Shown here in pieces: positions 30,001 through 33,000 of a DNA stretch of 64,000 nt (within the stretch, counting starts at the first letter, position 1; each line of letters opens with the position of its first letter). A program made the position numbers. Location: the NCBI GenBank assembly GCA_965242725.1, contig CBDESZ010000018.1, positions 404,578 through 468,577 on the forward strand, read 5' to 3'. Source of the DNA: Alkalispirochaeta sp. Its GTDB lineage: Bacteria; Spirochaetota; Spirochaetia; DSM-27196; Alkalispirochaetaceae.

Positions 30001-33000
30001 TCTCCTCCTCTTTACCATGCCCGGGATTCCCTCGGTCTACTACGGGAGTGAAGCGGGATTGCCAGGTGTGAAGGGCATCGACGACTGGCCGCTCCGCCCA
30101 CCGTTGGCGCCGAACGCTCTTTCCGGCCCGGACGCTCCGCATCCGGATCTTCGAACGATGATACGTGACGCCGCGGCATTGCGGCGCTCTTCCGAGGCGC
30201 TCCGGCGGGGAGACTATCGTCAGATATATGTATCCAACGGACAGATTGTGTTTCTCAGGGAAAGTGCCGATGAACGGATTCTCGTCGCGATCAATGGTGA
30301 AGAAGGAAACGCCGATATTCCCGTCGCCATGTTTGAATTGCCGGACGAAGCATCCGATCGGACCGGTCTGACCGGGGTGGACCTCCTGAACGGCCACCGG
30401 GACCTCGACTCGCTGCACTCCCTCGAAATACCCGGTTACTGGGGACGAGTCATCCGACTCCACCGGTAACGGCGACCTCCCGGCGCAGCCTAATACCGCC
30501 TCTGTCCCTTCAGGTAGATTGATACGCGTCCCGTCGATTCCGAAACGGCAACGCTGAGCGAATCCGTCACCGCGGTAATAGCCCGGGCACTCGCGTGGCG
30601 GGCGCCTTCGCCGGGATGGTGGTCCAGCTGTCCCGGTGAGACCGCCAGGTACGTTCCCGCGGAAACCACCGTGCCGTCCACATCGATGACAAATGCTCCG
30701 TCAATCTTGGAAAACTCCTTGATCGTCTCGTCCAGGGAGGGATCGAGAATGTTTCGCGCCTCCTCGGGATACCCGAGAAAGGGATTTACGATGAGCTGAT
30801 GGGTATAGGGGGCGATATCCGCGACGTGGCCGATGACAAAAAGGGCGCCGATGGGCTTCCCTTCCCGCCCTTCCCGTCCAAGTTCTTCAGCGATTTCGAG
30901 GACCCGTCCGGAAACGGACGCGTCAATATGAGGAAGGAGACGCTCACCCGTCGCCTCATCGCGTCGAACGATCCGTATTGACGAAATTCGGTTTGATCCC
31001 CGAACCCCCGACAGGACGACAAGAATCTCGGTATTCCCGAATGCACCGTCCATAAGAAGACGGATGAGCTCCCGTTGAACCGTCCCCGGATCCCAGAAGG
31101 ACGTCCGTACTCCTTCAATCCAGCGGACCCTTACGGTTTCTCTTTCGTGACACCGGTCGCACAGTATGTATCCCTGAAACGACGGATAGGTATTCAGAAA
31201 ATCGGTACCCTCGGAAAAGGTGTCGCCCATGAGTACCAGTGCGGCGCCGGGTGTCTTTCCCCGGATCTCCAATGCGGCATCGATGCAGCGGTGATTCACG
31301 TCGTCTCTGACCGATCCGTCCCGTGCGGTGTCCAGCGATTCCGCATGGTCGGCAATGATATCGACGATTTCCGATTCGTTCGGGCTGTCGATGATGCGCC
31401 GTATCACTCCCTCATAGCGCAGTATCCGGGCAATAGTCGCCATTGTCCTGAGATGGTTCCGGTCACCGCCGGCAAACAGTACGGCGATTCTGATTGACTG
31501 TCCCGGAATACCCCAGTCTATCGCCTCGGACAGCACCCCCACGACGACGATGTTGTCTGAAACACCCGATTTGACTGCGTGGGGAAAGGCGATCTGTTCC
31601 GCCACAATAGACGATACGATCGCCTCCCGGTCGACGGCGAGACGTTCGATCTCTCCTGCAGTGAGGTCGTCACAGAGGTCGCCCGCACGACCGGCAAGCT
31701 CGGCAATGGCGTTTTCTTTCGTCGATGAATGGAGAAACAGTGCACTGAGGACGGTGAGGCCCGCCTGTTCGCTCTGTAGGACCCGTTTGACCACAACTTC
31801 CTCCCGGACGGGACGTTCTAGAGCACCCCTTTGGTGGAGAGCACATCCTTCCGGGACCGATACGCCGCTCCGAGAGCGCGCCCCGTCGCTTTGAATATTG
31901 CCTCGGCGAGATGATGGCCGTTTTCACCGTAGTGGCCGATCACATGGATGTTGAGCTTTCCGTGGGAGGCGAAACCCTGAAAAAATTCCCTGACCAGGCT
32001 CAGGTCGAAGTTTCCCGCCCATCCCTGAGGATAGGTGACGCGGTACACCAGATAGCTCCTGCCACACGCGTCCACGATGACCTCCCCCAACGCATCGTCC
32101 ATGGGTATCGCCGCATGACCGAATCGCTGAATTGGTCCGTACCGGGAGACCGCTTCGGCCAGGGCGTCTCCAATGACGATGCCCACGTCTTCCACGGTAT
32201 GGTGATGGTCAACATCTATGTCGCCCCGTGCCGCGAGTTCCACGGTAAATCCGCCGTGAAAAAAGAGGGCATGGAGCATATGGTCGAAAAACGGAATGCC
32301 CGTCGCAACCGTCACATCTTGAGGCCCCCGCGTTCCCTCTTCCGGCAGACCCAAACGGAGGCTGATCTGCGTTTCTTTCGTCTCTCTCGTCACGTCTACG
32401 ACTCGCACACCTACCCCCTGATAGATCCTTCGTCCAGATCCGTCAATTCTTTCAGCCGGGGAGGATCGTTTCCCGGTCGGGAACACGTCCCGGCTGATAC
32501 CGCTGCGGCGAAACGCAGCATCTTCGTCGCCTGTCCCTCGGTGAGGGAAGAAATGGCGGTATTGTCCAAAAGTCCGTTATGATACAGCCACGCCAAGAGG
32601 CCGCCGTGAAAGGAGTCTCCCGCACCGACAGTATCGGCAACGGTCACCTGTCGGGCCGGTTCGAAAACCGAAAAACTCCCGGTATACGCCGTCGCGCCCC
32701 GCGCACCTTCGGTAACGACGATAAGGTGTGCCCCCGCTTCGAGCATTTCCGCCGCGGCCGCCGGCTTGTCGGTGGACTTGGAAATCCAAAGCAGGTCCTC
32801 ATCACTTATCTTTACAATGGTGCTTGCTCCTATCGCCCGTTCGATTCTTGTGCGGTAGGCATCCTCATCTTCGATGATCGACTCCCGGATATTGGGGTCA
32901 AATGAGACGACCCTGGACCGACGCTCCCGTTCAACCAGGCGGATTATGGACGGTCCCACGGGACTGGCGATTAGGGATATGGAGCCAAATTGAATCGCCT

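What a model noticed while it worked through the whole genome (the two positions that open the first line are those of the whole stretch)
30490..31794. A diadenylate cyclase with an N-terminal PTS EIIA(Ntr-type) domain: phosphotransferase control of c-di-AMP synthesis
Besides a canonical CdaA-CdaR pair (g02938/g02939) the genome encodes a second, soluble diadenylate cyclase, g02493 (434 aa): PTS_EIIA_2 (aa 22-149) - middle domain - DAC (aa 306-431). The phosphorylatable EIIA histidine (P71-H72) and the DAC motifs DGA (365-367) and RH (399-400) are conserved in the family, so c-di-AMP synthesis is predicted to be switched by a regulatory PTS (4 enzyme I, 3 HPr, HprK, but one EIIC). This architecture is not among the described cyclase classes (DisA, CdaA, CdaS, CdaM, CdaZ/DacZ; classes recalled).
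Evidence so far: pfam.tsv: PTS_EIIA_2 E 4e-15, DAC E 2.5e-20. Call 121: 803 database proteins at E<=1e-15; most of the 120 best are 410-500 aa with PF00359+PF02457, many also PF21755, a few PF02887; named sources are Spirochaetia and Verrucomicrobia, names only 'diadenylate cyclase' or 'PTS IIA'. Call 122: 113 aligned sequences, columns >=95% identical include P71, H72, D365, G366, A367, F368, R399, H400. Call 124: PTS inventory. Calls 119, 123: 3 and 2 papers hold the term sets; none (listings, abstracts) describes an EIIA-DAC enzyme.
(Added by a program. Inside this text positions count along the whole contig: contig position 404,578 is position 1 of the stretch shown here. "Call 12" and the like, gene names such as g00115 and contig names such as C1 are that model's own, and its searches are not shown. 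The text may have been shortened before it was handed on; [...] marks where a part breaks off. The agent that wrote the report below was given it as the finding of a first reader that could run no searches.)

Follow-up and report, generated by a model that had tools for sequence, protein, structure and literature searches.

The report
EIIA-fused DacZ-type diadenylate cyclase gene
This spirochaete gene encodes a second, soluble c-di-AMP-making enzyme with a phosphotransferase-system switch domain fused to its front; the design is real and widespread but already catalogued, and nobody has tested how it works.

Summary
Window 30490-31794 (-) is an intact 434-aa gene with three domains: PTS_EIIA_2 (aa 22-149), a pyruvate-kinase-C-like sensor domain (aa ~160-279) and a DAC domain (aa 306-431). 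The EIIA residues R56, E57, P71 and H72 and the cyclase motifs DGA and RH are invariant in 114 of 114 aligned full-length relatives.

The novelty claim is overstated. The cyclase half is DacZ/CdaZ-type. Pfam already has a model (DacZ_P) for the middle domain of this architecture. A class 'DacD' drawn only from Opitutae-type Verrucomicrobia is listed in Braun 2019, after Corrigan and Gruendling 2013. Galperin's 2023 scheme of 22 cyclase families could not be read here. This scan has also met the same architecture five times on other DNA.

New here:
- On a tree of the sensor and cyclase domains, the EIIA-less forms make one clade.
- The enzyme is the only DAC hit in 13 of 13 Verrucomicrobiota genomes, but sits beside CdaA in 12 of 12 Spirochaetota genomes, as it does here.
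- The host has a mostly regulatory PTS: GAF-EI, hprK-ptsH, nine EIIA_2 proteins and no PF02378 EIIC.
- A predicted HPr-EIIA complex got only weak support.

Phospho-control of c-di-AMP synthesis is plausible (about 0.5) but untested.

The parts
30490..31794 (-). Whole gene: 434-aa EIIA / PK_C-like / DAC diadenylate cyclase (P0001)
   Evidence: ORF, translation. Relatives of the same length cover 100% of it.
31800..31805 (-). Ribosome-binding site GGGAGG, 5 nt before the GTG start
   Evidence: Read directly from the sequence.
31348..31731 (-). PTS_EIIA_2 domain (aa 22-149)
   Evidence: Pfam E 1.4e-14. The family profile matches PtsN 4gqx at E 7.7e-23. The model's aa 4-153 align to EIIA-Ntr 1a6j with Z 18.6, rmsd 2.4, 142 aligned.
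31579..31581 (-). Codon of His72, the predicted phospho-acceptor, in the motif I-A-F-P-H
   Evidence: P71 and H72 are identical in 114 of 114 sequences, as are R56 and E57. H114 is kept in 91 of 114, with Y in 19.
30958..31317 (-). Pyruvate-kinase-C-like (DacZ_P-type) sensor domain (aa ~160-279)
   Evidence: The model aligns to the pyruvate kinase C-domain: 2e28 Z 9.0 (rmsd 2.9, 106 aligned), 5sc8 Z 8.5, 3e0v Z 7.4. The family profile matches pyruvate kinase at E 4.3e-4. PF21755 is found at this position in relatives, but not in the window's own protein even at E <= 5.
30502..30879 (-). DAC catalytic domain (aa 306-431), with DGA at 365-367 and RH at 399-400
   Evidence: Pfam E 6.5e-20. The best NCBIfam hit is DacZ NF041371, E 8.9e-29. 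The model aligns to 2fb5 Z 16.3, DacM 7dg0 Z 14.9 and DisA 3c1y Z 14.3. The catalytic motifs are invariant.
31818..32486 (-). hisB (imidazoleglycerol-phosphate dehydratase), directly upstream on the same strand and probably co-transcribed
   Evidence: Pfam IGPD E 5.7e-56. The gap to the cyclase start is 23 nt. No convincing terminator-like site lies between them.
23498..24553 (+). Stand-alone DHH/DHHA1 protein (NrnA/DhhP-like), a candidate pApA or c-di-AMP phosphodiesterase. It is a possible partner, not part of the gene.
   Evidence: Pfam DHH 1.4e-13 and DHHA1 1.3e-10. NCBIfam NrnA 8.8e-31, below its cut-off. No PgpH-type domain was found in the genome.

Best explanation
**What it is.** The gene encodes a soluble, catalytically competent diadenylate cyclase of the DacZ/CdaZ type: a pyruvate-kinase-C-like sensor domain followed by a DAC domain. 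An ancestor of this branch acquired a PTS EIIA (Fru/Mtl/Ntr-family) domain at its N-terminus.

**How it most likely works.**
1. PEP phosphorylates an enzyme I. The genome has a plain EI and a GAF-EI of the PtsP kind.
2. EI phosphorylates HPr on His15. The likely HPr is the conserved one encoded beside hprK.
3. HPr~P reversibly phosphorylates His72 of the EIIA domain.
4. The phosphorylation state of His72, together with a still unknown small-molecule ligand of the PK_C-like domain, sets whether two DAC domains can pair head-to-head. That pairing is needed to condense two ATP into c-di-AMP.

**What it adds to the cell.** In this spirochaete it is a second, conditional source of c-di-AMP on top of the membrane enzyme CdaA. 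The likely outputs are RCK_C-bearing K+ and cation transport proteins.

**Shown and inferred.** Shown are the domain anatomy, the conservation of the catalytic and phospho-acceptor residues, and the family's distribution and history. Inferred are catalysis, phosphotransfer, its direction of effect and the outputs.
For: **Three domains confirmed by sequence and by fold**
- The AF2 model has mean pLDDT 87.7.
- It aligns to EIIA-Ntr with Z 18.6, to the pyruvate kinase C-domain with Z 9.0 and to DAC with Z 16.3.

**Catalytic and phospho-acceptor residues kept**
- GREG, NPF, DG of the DGA motif (A367 113 of 114) and RH are identical in 114 of 114 sequences.
- The EIIA residues R56, E57, P71 and H72 are also identical in 114 of 114.
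- S/T62 is kept in 114 of 114, and the second histidine H114 in 91 of 114.

**The fusion is old and retained**
- On a tree of the sensor and DAC domains (77 rows), the EIIA label needs only 2 changes. Shuffled labels need 18.8 on average, and 0 of 500 shuffles were as low.
- The EIIA-less forms make one clade of 20 (SH-aLRT 96).
- The single exception, L068, carries its EIIA domain in another frame (E 8.1e-35).

**The phosphodonor machinery is present**
- The genome has EI, GAF-EI, a third EI and three HPr.
- hprK lies directly upstream of the conserved HPr, which has both the His15 and the Ser46 motifs.
- No PF02378 EIIC was found.
- HPr is present in 30 of 30 carrier genomes tested.

**Predicted EIIA(1-158)-HPr complex: weak support only**
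- The median score was 0.56 against a best control of 0.01.
- The three runs agreed in at least 100% of their contacts, and the partner's pLDDT was at least 88.
- By the tool's calibration, the mark was reached by 116 of 157 solved complexes and 2 of 215 mismatched pairs.
- Scores of 0.60 or under came from only 18 of those 157 solved complexes, and from both mismatches that passed.
- By recall, HPr-EIIA complexes of related proteins are solved, so the pass may reflect likeness only.

**Possible receivers of c-di-AMP**
- TrkA (477 aa), a KtrA-like protein (230 aa) and other TrkA_C proteins are present.

**Precedent for PTS control of a nucleotide messenger in trans**
- Phosphorylated EIIA-Ntr acts on Rel in Caulobacter (PMC10118264, passage seen).
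Against: - There is no biochemical or expression evidence of any kind. No RNA run holds the gene.
- HPr is also present in 18 of the 20 genomes taken as EIIA-less. It is 17 of 19 once L068 is moved to the EIIA group. Co-occurrence therefore does not discriminate.
- The gene neighbourhood carries no PTS or c-di-AMP genes and is not conserved between phyla.
- pTM 0.50 means the arrangement between domains is not predicted with confidence. No structural route from His72 to the active site can be proposed.
- The complex prediction is only weak support.
- The window's protein and L020 sit on a long branch (2.67 changes per column). Its middle domain is too diverged for Pfam DacZ_P, so regulation in this subclade may differ from the rest of the family.
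- No c-di-AMP riboswitch or DarA/PstA receptor was found. The genome is 91.8% complete.
Confidence: 0.5

Rival explanations
1. The EIIA domain is a docking or ligand-sensing module that works without phosphotransfer. It might, for example, bind HPr, another protein or a metabolite, as free dephospho-EIIA-Ntr binds its targets. The cyclase would then respond to binding, not to phosphorylation of His72.
For: - The window's EIIA domain scores far below the PtsN equivalog cut-off (22.3 against 138.7 bits) and below the fructose-IIA cut-off (37.3 against 103.5 bits).
- The second active-site histidine is replaced by Tyr in 19 of 114 relatives.
- No EIIB or EIIC partner gene lies nearby.
Against: R56, E57, P71 and H72 are identical in 114 of 114 sequences, across phyla and down to about 26% overall identity. 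That is hard to explain unless the phospho-acceptor chemistry is under selection.
Confidence: 0.2
2. The PK_C-like (DacZ_P-type) domain is the real regulator, through an allosteric metabolite as in pyruvate kinase. The EIIA domain would add only a minor or structural contribution.
For: - The two-domain form without EIIA exists in 22 of 80 loci, after moving L068 and with L058 unclear. These come mostly from Planctomycetota, Nitrospinota and Thermodesulfobacteriota, so the sensor plus DAC works as a unit.
- A Gly-rich loop at the end of the domain is conserved, with G263 in 111 of 114. By recall, this corresponds to the effector loop of pyruvate kinase.
- Braun 2019 (PMC6741144, passage) argues for a regulatory role for this fold in DacZ.
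Against: - The EIIA residues are as invariant as the catalytic ones.
- Once gained, the EIIA domain was kept in every non-basal branch sampled.
- The two inputs do not exclude each other.
Confidence: 0.2
3. The protein is a non-catalytic relic or a nucleotide-binding receptor, not a cyclase.
For: - The third residue of the classical RHR motif is Ala here (R399-H400-A401).
- The position before DGA is Ile, not the His seen in CdaA (the motif lore is recalled, and partly stated in PMC12974146).
Against: - RHA is the majority state of the whole family (A401 in 87 of 114).
- The DAC core motifs D365 G366 (A367 113 of 114), R399 H400, G309 R310 E311 and N337 P338 F339 are invariant.
- In 13 of 13 Verrucomicrobiota genomes tested this is the only DAC hit.
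Confidence: 0.04

Closest known systems
Archaeal DacZ / CdaZ (DacY) diadenylate cyclases (Haloferax volcanii DacZ, Methanocaldococcus jannaschii CdaZ)
   Same: - Both are soluble enzymes with a pyruvate-kinase-C-like domain directly before the DAC domain.
- The window's DAC region scores best against NCBIfam DacZ: 100.6 bits, against 34.5 for CdaA, 33 for DisA, 28.9 for CdaS and 23.5 for CdaM.
- The PK_C-like fold is confirmed.
- Braun 2019 (PMC6741144, passages) describes this shared fold and notes bacterial members of the branch.
   Different: - The window's protein has an extra N-terminal EIIA domain.
- It is bacterial.
- It scores far below the DacZ equivalog cut-off (100.6 against 430 bits), and the match covers only profile positions 122-259.
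Bacterial two-domain DacZ_P-DAC proteins (about 300-330 aa; Planctomycetota, Nitrospinota, Thermodesulfobacteriota)
   Same: The sensor and DAC domains are homologous (E 1e-20 to 1e-69 with my domain profiles), and the catalytic motifs are the same.
   Different: They lack the EIIA domain and form a separate clade (SH-aLRT 96).
Class 'DacD' of Corrigan and Gruendling 2013, as listed in Braun 2019 (PMC6741144, Appendix Fig. A1)
   Same: - Its five listed representatives are from Lacunisphaera, Puniceicoccaceae, Coraliomargarita, a Verrucomicrobia bacterium and an Opitutae bacterium.
- In these same taxa the EIIA-DAC protein was the only DAC hit in 13 of 13 genomes.
   Different: - I could not read the defining paper and could not fetch the listed accessions, so identity of 'DacD' with this architecture is inferred, not shown.
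- The window's protein is a divergent spirochaete member.
EIIA-Ntr (PtsN) of the nitrogen-related PTS
   Same: - Same fold (Z 18.6 to 1a6j).
- Same R..E and A-x-P-H active-site signature.
- The family profile's best PDB match is PtsN (E 7.7e-23).
- In Proteobacteria, PtsN controls K+ uptake systems (PMC9239096 and PMC13445646, listings and abstracts only). In many bacteria that is the physiological field of c-di-AMP.
   Different: - Here the domain is fused in cis to an enzyme instead of acting in trans.
- It scores 22.3 bits against a PtsN equivalog cut-off of 138.7, so it is not a PtsN orthologue.
PTS control of other nucleotide messengers: EIIA-Glc and adenylate cyclase in enteric bacteria (recalled), and EIIA-Ntr~P and Rel in Caulobacter (PMC10118264, passage)
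   Same: The logic is the same: the phosphorylation state of an EIIA protein sets the synthesis or breakdown of a second messenger.
   Different: Those act by protein-protein contact between separate proteins and concern cAMP or (p)ppGpp. Here the EIIA domain is covalently fused and the messenger is c-di-AMP.

Membership tests
Diadenylate cyclase (DAC / DisA_N, PF02457) | DAC domain match above the curated cut-off | tested here: met
   71.3 bits against a cut-off of 27, aa 306-431. Fold Z 16.3 to 2fb5 and 14.3 to DisA 3c1y.
Diadenylate cyclase (DAC / DisA_N, PF02457) | Catalytic DGA and RHx motifs present | tested here: met
   D365-G366-A367 and R399-H400 are present. D365, G366, R399 and H400 are identical in 114 of 114 relatives and A367 in 113 of 114. 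The third residue of RHR is Ala, as in 87 of 114.
Diadenylate cyclase (DAC / DisA_N, PF02457) | Makes c-di-AMP from ATP | not testable with these tools
   Needs an enzyme assay.
DacZ/CdaZ-type cyclases | Pyruvate-kinase-C-like domain directly N-terminal of the DAC domain | tested here: met
   Model aa 160-279 against pyruvate kinase 2e28: Z 9.0, rmsd 2.9, 106 aligned. The family profile matches pyruvate kinase at E 4.3e-4.
DacZ/CdaZ-type cyclases | Pfam DacZ_P (PF21755) match in the protein itself | tested here: not met
   No hit even at E <= 5 for the window's protein. Relatives P0073, P0064 and P0038 hit at 9.3e-25 to 2.5e-11. The window's subclade is diverged (branch length 2.67).
Haloarchaeal DacZ (NCBIfam NF041371, equivalog) | Score above the equivalog cut-off of 430 bits | tested here: not met
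   100.6 bits, covering only profile positions 122-259 of 270. It is related, but not an orthologue.
PTS EIIA type 2 (PF00359) | Domain match above the cut-off, and the fold | tested here: met
   54.7 bits against a cut-off of 27. Z 18.6 to 1a6j and 17.3 to EIIA-Mtl 1a3a.
PTS EIIA type 2 (PF00359) | Phospho-acceptor His in the conserved A-x-P-H motif, with the upstream Arg | tested here: met
   H72, P71 and R56 are identical in 114 of 114. The assignment of the equivalent residues in PtsN and EIIA-Mtl is recalled.
PTS EIIA type 2 (PF00359) | Is phosphorylated by HPr~P or NPr~P | not testable with these tools
   There is only a weak-support complex prediction: 0.56 against a best control of 0.01. 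The runs agree in at least 100% of their contacts and the partner's pLDDT is at least 88. The mark was reached by 116 of 157 solved complexes and 2 of 215 mismatched pairs, but at 0.60 or under by only 18 of those 157 and by both mismatches that passed. By recall, related HPr-EIIA complexes are solved, so the pass may show likeness only.
PtsN (EIIA-Ntr, TIGR01419 equivalog) | Score above the equivalog cut-off of 138.7 bits | tested here: not met
   22.3 bits. The fructose-IIA model TIGR00848 scores higher, at 37.3 bits, also below its cut-off. 'Ntr-type' is therefore a resemblance, not membership.
Class 'DacD' (Corrigan and Gruendling 2013) and the matching family among Galperin's 22 (2023) | The domain architecture as defined in those papers | not testable with these tools
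   Galperin 2023 is not held. Corrigan and Gruendling 2013 is not in the library and was not requested. Only the list of DacD taxa in PMC6741144 was seen.

The most novel reading that the evidence does not exclude
This would be an in-cis PTS-to-c-di-AMP switch. HPr~P is itself gated by HprK and by a GAF-containing enzyme I. It would phosphorylate His72 and so toggle pairing of the DAC domains.

That would make this enzyme the c-di-AMP-world counterpart of two proteobacterial systems: EIIA-Ntr control of TrkA/KdpD, and EIIA-Glc control of adenylate cyclase.

In spirochaetes it would be a conditional second cyclase within an expanded network of EIIA regulators. That network has nine EIIA_2 proteins, including conserved EIIA-PII-like fusions and EIIA genes placed beside cation transporters. 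It would tie carbon and nitrogen status to K+ and osmotic homeostasis.
Probability: 0.4. Interest if true: 0.6.

Novelty: new member of a known kind. Interest (0 to 1): 0.3.

Why it matters
How c-di-AMP synthesis is regulated is well studied only for CdaA, DisA and CdaS in Gram-positive bacteria. What DacZ-type cyclases sense is unknown.

This family offers a cyclase whose input domain has known chemistry: His phosphorylation by HPr. The link between carbon or nitrogen status and c-di-AMP could therefore be tested directly with purified proteins.

The link matters most in Opitutales-type Verrucomicrobia, where this was the only cyclase found in 13 of 13 genomes.

For this window the gene itself is an ordinary, intact and somewhat diverged member of a catalogued family. 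The value lies in the family, not in this copy.

Tried and rejected
- The term pairs were 'diadenylate cyclase'+'EIIA' (5 papers), 'c-di-AMP'+'PTS_EIIA_2' (0), 'DacZ_P' (an unrelated ant paper), 'DacD'+'DacC'+'c-di-AMP' (only Braun 2019) and 'c-di-AMP'+'PTSNtr' (5 papers).
- Judged by listings and abstracts, and by passages of nine papers, none describes an EIIA-DAC enzyme.
- The three reviews most likely to describe it are not held: Galperin 2023 PMC10127676, He 2020 PMC7102992 and Yin 2020 PMC7850090. Commichau 2018 PMC6287462 is not held either.
- Absence from print is therefore not shown. Supplements were not consulted.

**Gene neighbourhood**.
- No gene cluster is shared across phyla among the 53 related loci listed as EIIA-bearing plus the window.
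- 47 of these 54 yielded the cyclase ORF after my ORF filter.
- Opitutales loci share housekeeping neighbours that look like dnaG, rpoD and a small membrane protein. These names were read by eye and not tested.
- The window's metH-pfkB-hisB context recurs only in L020.

**HPr co-occurrence**. It is not discriminating.

**Expression.** No RNA holder is listed for the gene, and read laying was not used.

**c-di-AMP parts in the own genome** (91.8% complete).
- No hit for the c-di-AMP riboswitch RF00379.
- No hit for DarA/PstA PF06153.
- No hit for PgpH PF07698.

**Other checks.**
- The ESM Atlas gave no usable hit for the C-terminal domain of the EIIA-PII-like paralogue.
- I checked whether L068, L058 and L075 carry a different N-terminal sensor. 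L068 is a frameshifted EIIA form. L058 holds a masked stretch, and L075 starts later and is a two-domain form.
- Base composition around the gene is unremarkable: GC 0.589 against 0.52-0.64 across the window.
- The promoter and terminator scans are at chance level.
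Full report
**1. The observation**

A GGGAGG ribosome-binding site lies 5 nt upstream, and the hisB stop codon lies 23 nt upstream.

- Pfam finds PTS_EIIA_2 at aa 22-149 (E 1.4e-14) and DAC at aa 306-431 (E 6.5e-20). Both are above their curated cut-offs.
- Of the 120 relatives listed, 115 carry both PF00359 and PF02457, 68 carry PF21755 as well, and 3 carry PF02887.
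- Base composition is unremarkable.

**2. What the three parts are**

In relatives it lies between the EIIA and DAC domains, for example at aa 162-288 of P0073 with E 9.3e-25.

The window's own middle domain is too diverged for that model, with no hit even at E <= 5. Other evidence still places it in the same fold:
- A profile of 114 family members matches the C-terminal domain of pyruvate kinase at E 4.3e-4. The same profile matches PtsN at 7.7e-23 and CdaA at 3.7e-12.
- An AlphaFold2 model of the window's protein has mean pLDDT 87.7 and pTM 0.50.
- In that model, aa 4-153 align to EIIA-Ntr 1a6j with Z 18.6.
- aa 160-279 align to pyruvate kinase 2e28 with Z 9.0 (rmsd 2.9, 106 residues).
- aa 283-434 align to DAC structures with Z 14-16. 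Foldseek agrees for the two outer domains.

NCBIfam ranks the cyclase half closest to haloarchaeal DacZ at 100.6 bits. CdaA scores 34.5, DisA 33, CdaS 28.9 and CdaM 23.5. The DacZ score is still far below the equivalog cut-off of 430.

The protein is therefore a DacZ/CdaZ-type cyclase (PK_C-like sensor plus DAC) with an EIIA domain added in front. 'Ntr-type' is a resemblance only. The PtsN equivalog scores 22.3 bits against a cut-off of 138.7, and a fructose-IIA model scores higher.

**3. Conservation**

I aligned 114 of the 121 proteins in hand. Seven that were short or lacked a domain were dropped, so the counts below describe full-length members only.

| Residues | Conservation |
|---|---|
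| R56, E57, P71, H72 | 114 of 114 |
| G309, R310, E311 | 114 of 114 |
| N337, P338, F339 | 114 of 114 |
| D365, G366 | 114 of 114 |
| R399, H400 | 114 of 114 |
| A367 | 113 of 114 |
| S/T62 | 114 of 114 |
| H114 (second EIIA histidine) | 91 of 114, Tyr in 19 |
| A401 (the family reads RHA, not RHR) | 87 of 114 |

The EIIA phospho-acceptor signature is conserved as strictly as the catalytic centre.

**4. Distribution and history**

- A profile search of 1.84 billion cluster representatives (50% identity) finds 701 at E <= 1e-30. By my count, about 93 of the best 150 span the EIIA domain.
- In one-genome-per-species contigs, 575 stretches encode relatives. The 80 best were kept.
- My domain profiles find EIIA + sensor + DAC in 55 of those 80, sensor + DAC only in 23, and 2 cut at the contig end.
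- One of the 23, L068, has its EIIA domain in another frame (E 8.1e-35). Another, L058, holds a masked stretch.
- By record title, three-domain forms come from Spirochaetota, Verrucomicrobiota (Opitutales, Puniceicoccales), Fibrobacterota and a few Planctomycetota.
- Two-domain forms come mostly from Planctomycetota, Nitrospinota and Thermodesulfobacteriota.

I built a maximum-likelihood tree of the sensor and DAC domains. It has 77 rows. L037, L047, L058 and L086 were left out because they were cut or only partly matched.
- The EIIA label needs 2 changes on this tree. Shuffled labels need 18.8 on average, and 0 of 500 shuffles were as low.
- The EIIA-less rows form one clade of 20 (SH-aLRT 96).
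- The only exception is the frameshifted L068.
- This fits a single gain or a single loss of the EIIA domain. The tree is unrooted, so I cannot say which.
- The window's protein groups with L020 (77% identity over the region) on a long branch of 2.67.

**5. Role in the cell**

- The DAC family search finds at least two DAC genes, a CdaA-like one plus this one, in 12 of 12 Spirochaetota carrier genomes.
- It finds exactly one, this one, in 13 of 13 Verrucomicrobiota carrier genomes.
- The other five genomes have two, two, two, two and one.
- The window's own genome (4.34 Mb, 34 contigs, 91.8% complete) has CdaA, with a YbbR/CdaR gene directly behind it, plus this enzyme.

Here it is therefore an accessory, presumably conditional, cyclase.

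**6. The PTS of this genome**

- There are three full-length enzyme I genes, one of them with an N-terminal GAF domain as in PtsP, and a fourth fragment at a contig start.
- There are three HPr genes.
- One HPr lies directly downstream of hprK and has both the His15 and the Ser46 motifs.
- That HPr is also the orthologue conserved across carrier genomes.
- No PF02378 EIIC was found.
- Nine ORFs carry PTS_EIIA_2. They include an HTH_17-EIIA protein and two EIIA proteins with a C-terminal extra domain.

HPr was found in 30 of 30 carrier genomes, but also in 18 of the 20 genomes taken as EIIA-less. That is 17 of 19 after moving L068. Co-occurrence is compatible with the idea but not informative.

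**7. Test of HPr binding**

I ran a complex prediction with EIIA residues 1-158 (given as the family alignment) and the hprK-linked HPr (given as an alignment of 23). The verdict was 'weak support'.
- The median score was 0.56 against a best control of 0.01.
- The three runs agreed in at least 100% of their contacts, and the partner's pLDDT was at least 88.
- By the tool's calibration, the mark was reached by 116 of 157 solved complexes and 2 of 215 mismatched pairs.
- At 0.60 or under it was reached by only 18 of those 157, and by both of the mismatches that passed.
- By recall, HPr-EIIA complexes of related proteins are solved, so the pass may show likeness only.

**8. Mechanism**

The best-supported reading is a cyclase with two stacked inputs.
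- The first is His72 phosphorylation, through PEP, then EI or GAF-EI, then HPr.
- The second is an unknown ligand of the PK_C-like domain.
- Together they would set whether two DAC domains can form the head-to-head pair needed for catalysis.

The direction of the effect is unknown. The model's pTM of 0.50 gives no reliable arrangement between the domains.

Candidate receivers exist: TrkA, a KtrA-like protein and other TrkA_C proteins. A candidate degrading enzyme, a stand-alone DHH/DHHA1 protein, lies 6 kb away in the window. No c-di-AMP riboswitch, DarA/PstA or PgpH was found.

Two points make the link attractive but prove nothing:
- Proteobacterial EIIA-Ntr controls K+ uptake systems (PMC9239096 and PMC13445646, listings and abstracts).
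- Phosphorylated EIIA-Ntr controls Rel in Caulobacter (PMC10118264, passage).

**9. Comparison with what is known, and novelty**

Finer classifications exist.
- Braun 2019 (PMC6741144, passages) cites bacterial classes DacC, DacD and DacE and archaeal classes DacV to DacZ, after Corrigan and Gruendling 2013.
- That paper lists DacD representatives only from Lacunisphaera, Puniceicoccaceae, Coraliomargarita, a Verrucomicrobia bacterium and an Opitutae bacterium.
- In those groups the EIIA-DAC is the sole cyclase.
- Galperin 2023 sorted DACs into 22 families by N-terminal domain (stated in PMC12901056 and PMC13640721, passages). By recall of its abstract, it defined three PK_C-related DacZ_N domains, and the Pfam names DacZ_A, DacZ_P and DacZ_T match that.

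I could not read either source, so explicit description of the EIIA fusion is probable but unverified. No open-access paper found by my ten searches describes it or tests it.

This scan has met the same architecture five times before on other DNA. The verdicts there were like mine: real, catalogued, untested.

I rate the gene a new, somewhat diverged member of a known kind. The open question, whether a PTS really switches c-di-AMP synthesis, is a fair experimental target. It belongs to the family, not to this window.

Noticed in passing
window 23498-24553 (+): A stand-alone DHH + DHHA1 protein of 351 aa, NrnA-like but below the cut-off, lies 6 kb from the cyclase. It is a candidate pApA or c-di-AMP phosphodiesterase in a genome where no PgpH-type domain was found.
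   Followed up: partly
own genome G000:C5:52800-53687 (-), locus L109: A 274-aa protein fuses an EIIA-Ntr-like domain with an invariant His69 to a C-terminal PII-like domain.
- It has 425 relatives at E <= 1e-5. Of the 120 listed, nearly all are 274-275 aa, and every source name given is Spirochaet*-type.
- Mean column identity is 69%.
- In the model (pLDDT 78), aa 162-269 match DUF3240 3ce8 (Z 10.8), CPII 5d4l (9.9), 3m05 (9.8), PII 4ush (9.7) and SbtB 6mm2 (9.3). These are all tied.
- By recall, PII-like proteins include c-di-AMP receptors. The ligand here is unknown.
   Followed up: partly
own genome G000:C22:78496-83277 (locus L146): A Castor/Pollux-type channel with a TrkA_C domain (652 aa, minus strand) faces a plus-strand row of three genes. 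They are an HTH_17-EIIA protein, a second EIIA-PII-like protein and a Na_H_Exchanger protein of 421 aa. EIIA regulators thus sit beside cation transport genes.
   Followed up: partly
own genome G000:C17:42485-43334 (-) and G000:C27:112151-114787 (-): hprK lies directly upstream of the conserved HPr, which has the His15 and Ser46 motifs. A separate row encodes an EIIA_2 protein, enzyme I (594 aa) and a Ser46-less HPr.
   Followed up: partly
genome G010 (locus L045): two EIIA-DAC-sized DAC hits, C29:5450-5827 and C157:6463-6840: One spirochaete genome carries two copies of the EIIA-DAC-sized gene (open frames of 490 and 450 aa) besides a CdaA-like gene.
   Followed up: no
L059 (open frame 703 aa) and P0306 (714 aa): Some Planctomycetota-type members have about 250 extra residues before the EIIA domain. 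In L059 this stretch looks like a high-GC read-through and not a domain. P0306 was not examined.
   Followed up: no
Opitutales loci, e.g. L039:7539-7940 (+): A small membrane protein of about 130 aa lies within 50-340 nt upstream of the cyclase on the same strand in 13 of 14 loci that have it. dnaG-like and rpoD-like genes lie further upstream. The names were read by eye from the sequences and not tested.
   Followed up: no
window 31818-33364 (-): The longest hisB frame (222 aa) overlaps the end of the pfkB-family kinase gene by 76 nt. HisB family matches begin only at aa 27-31, so the true hisB start is probably later.
   Followed up: no
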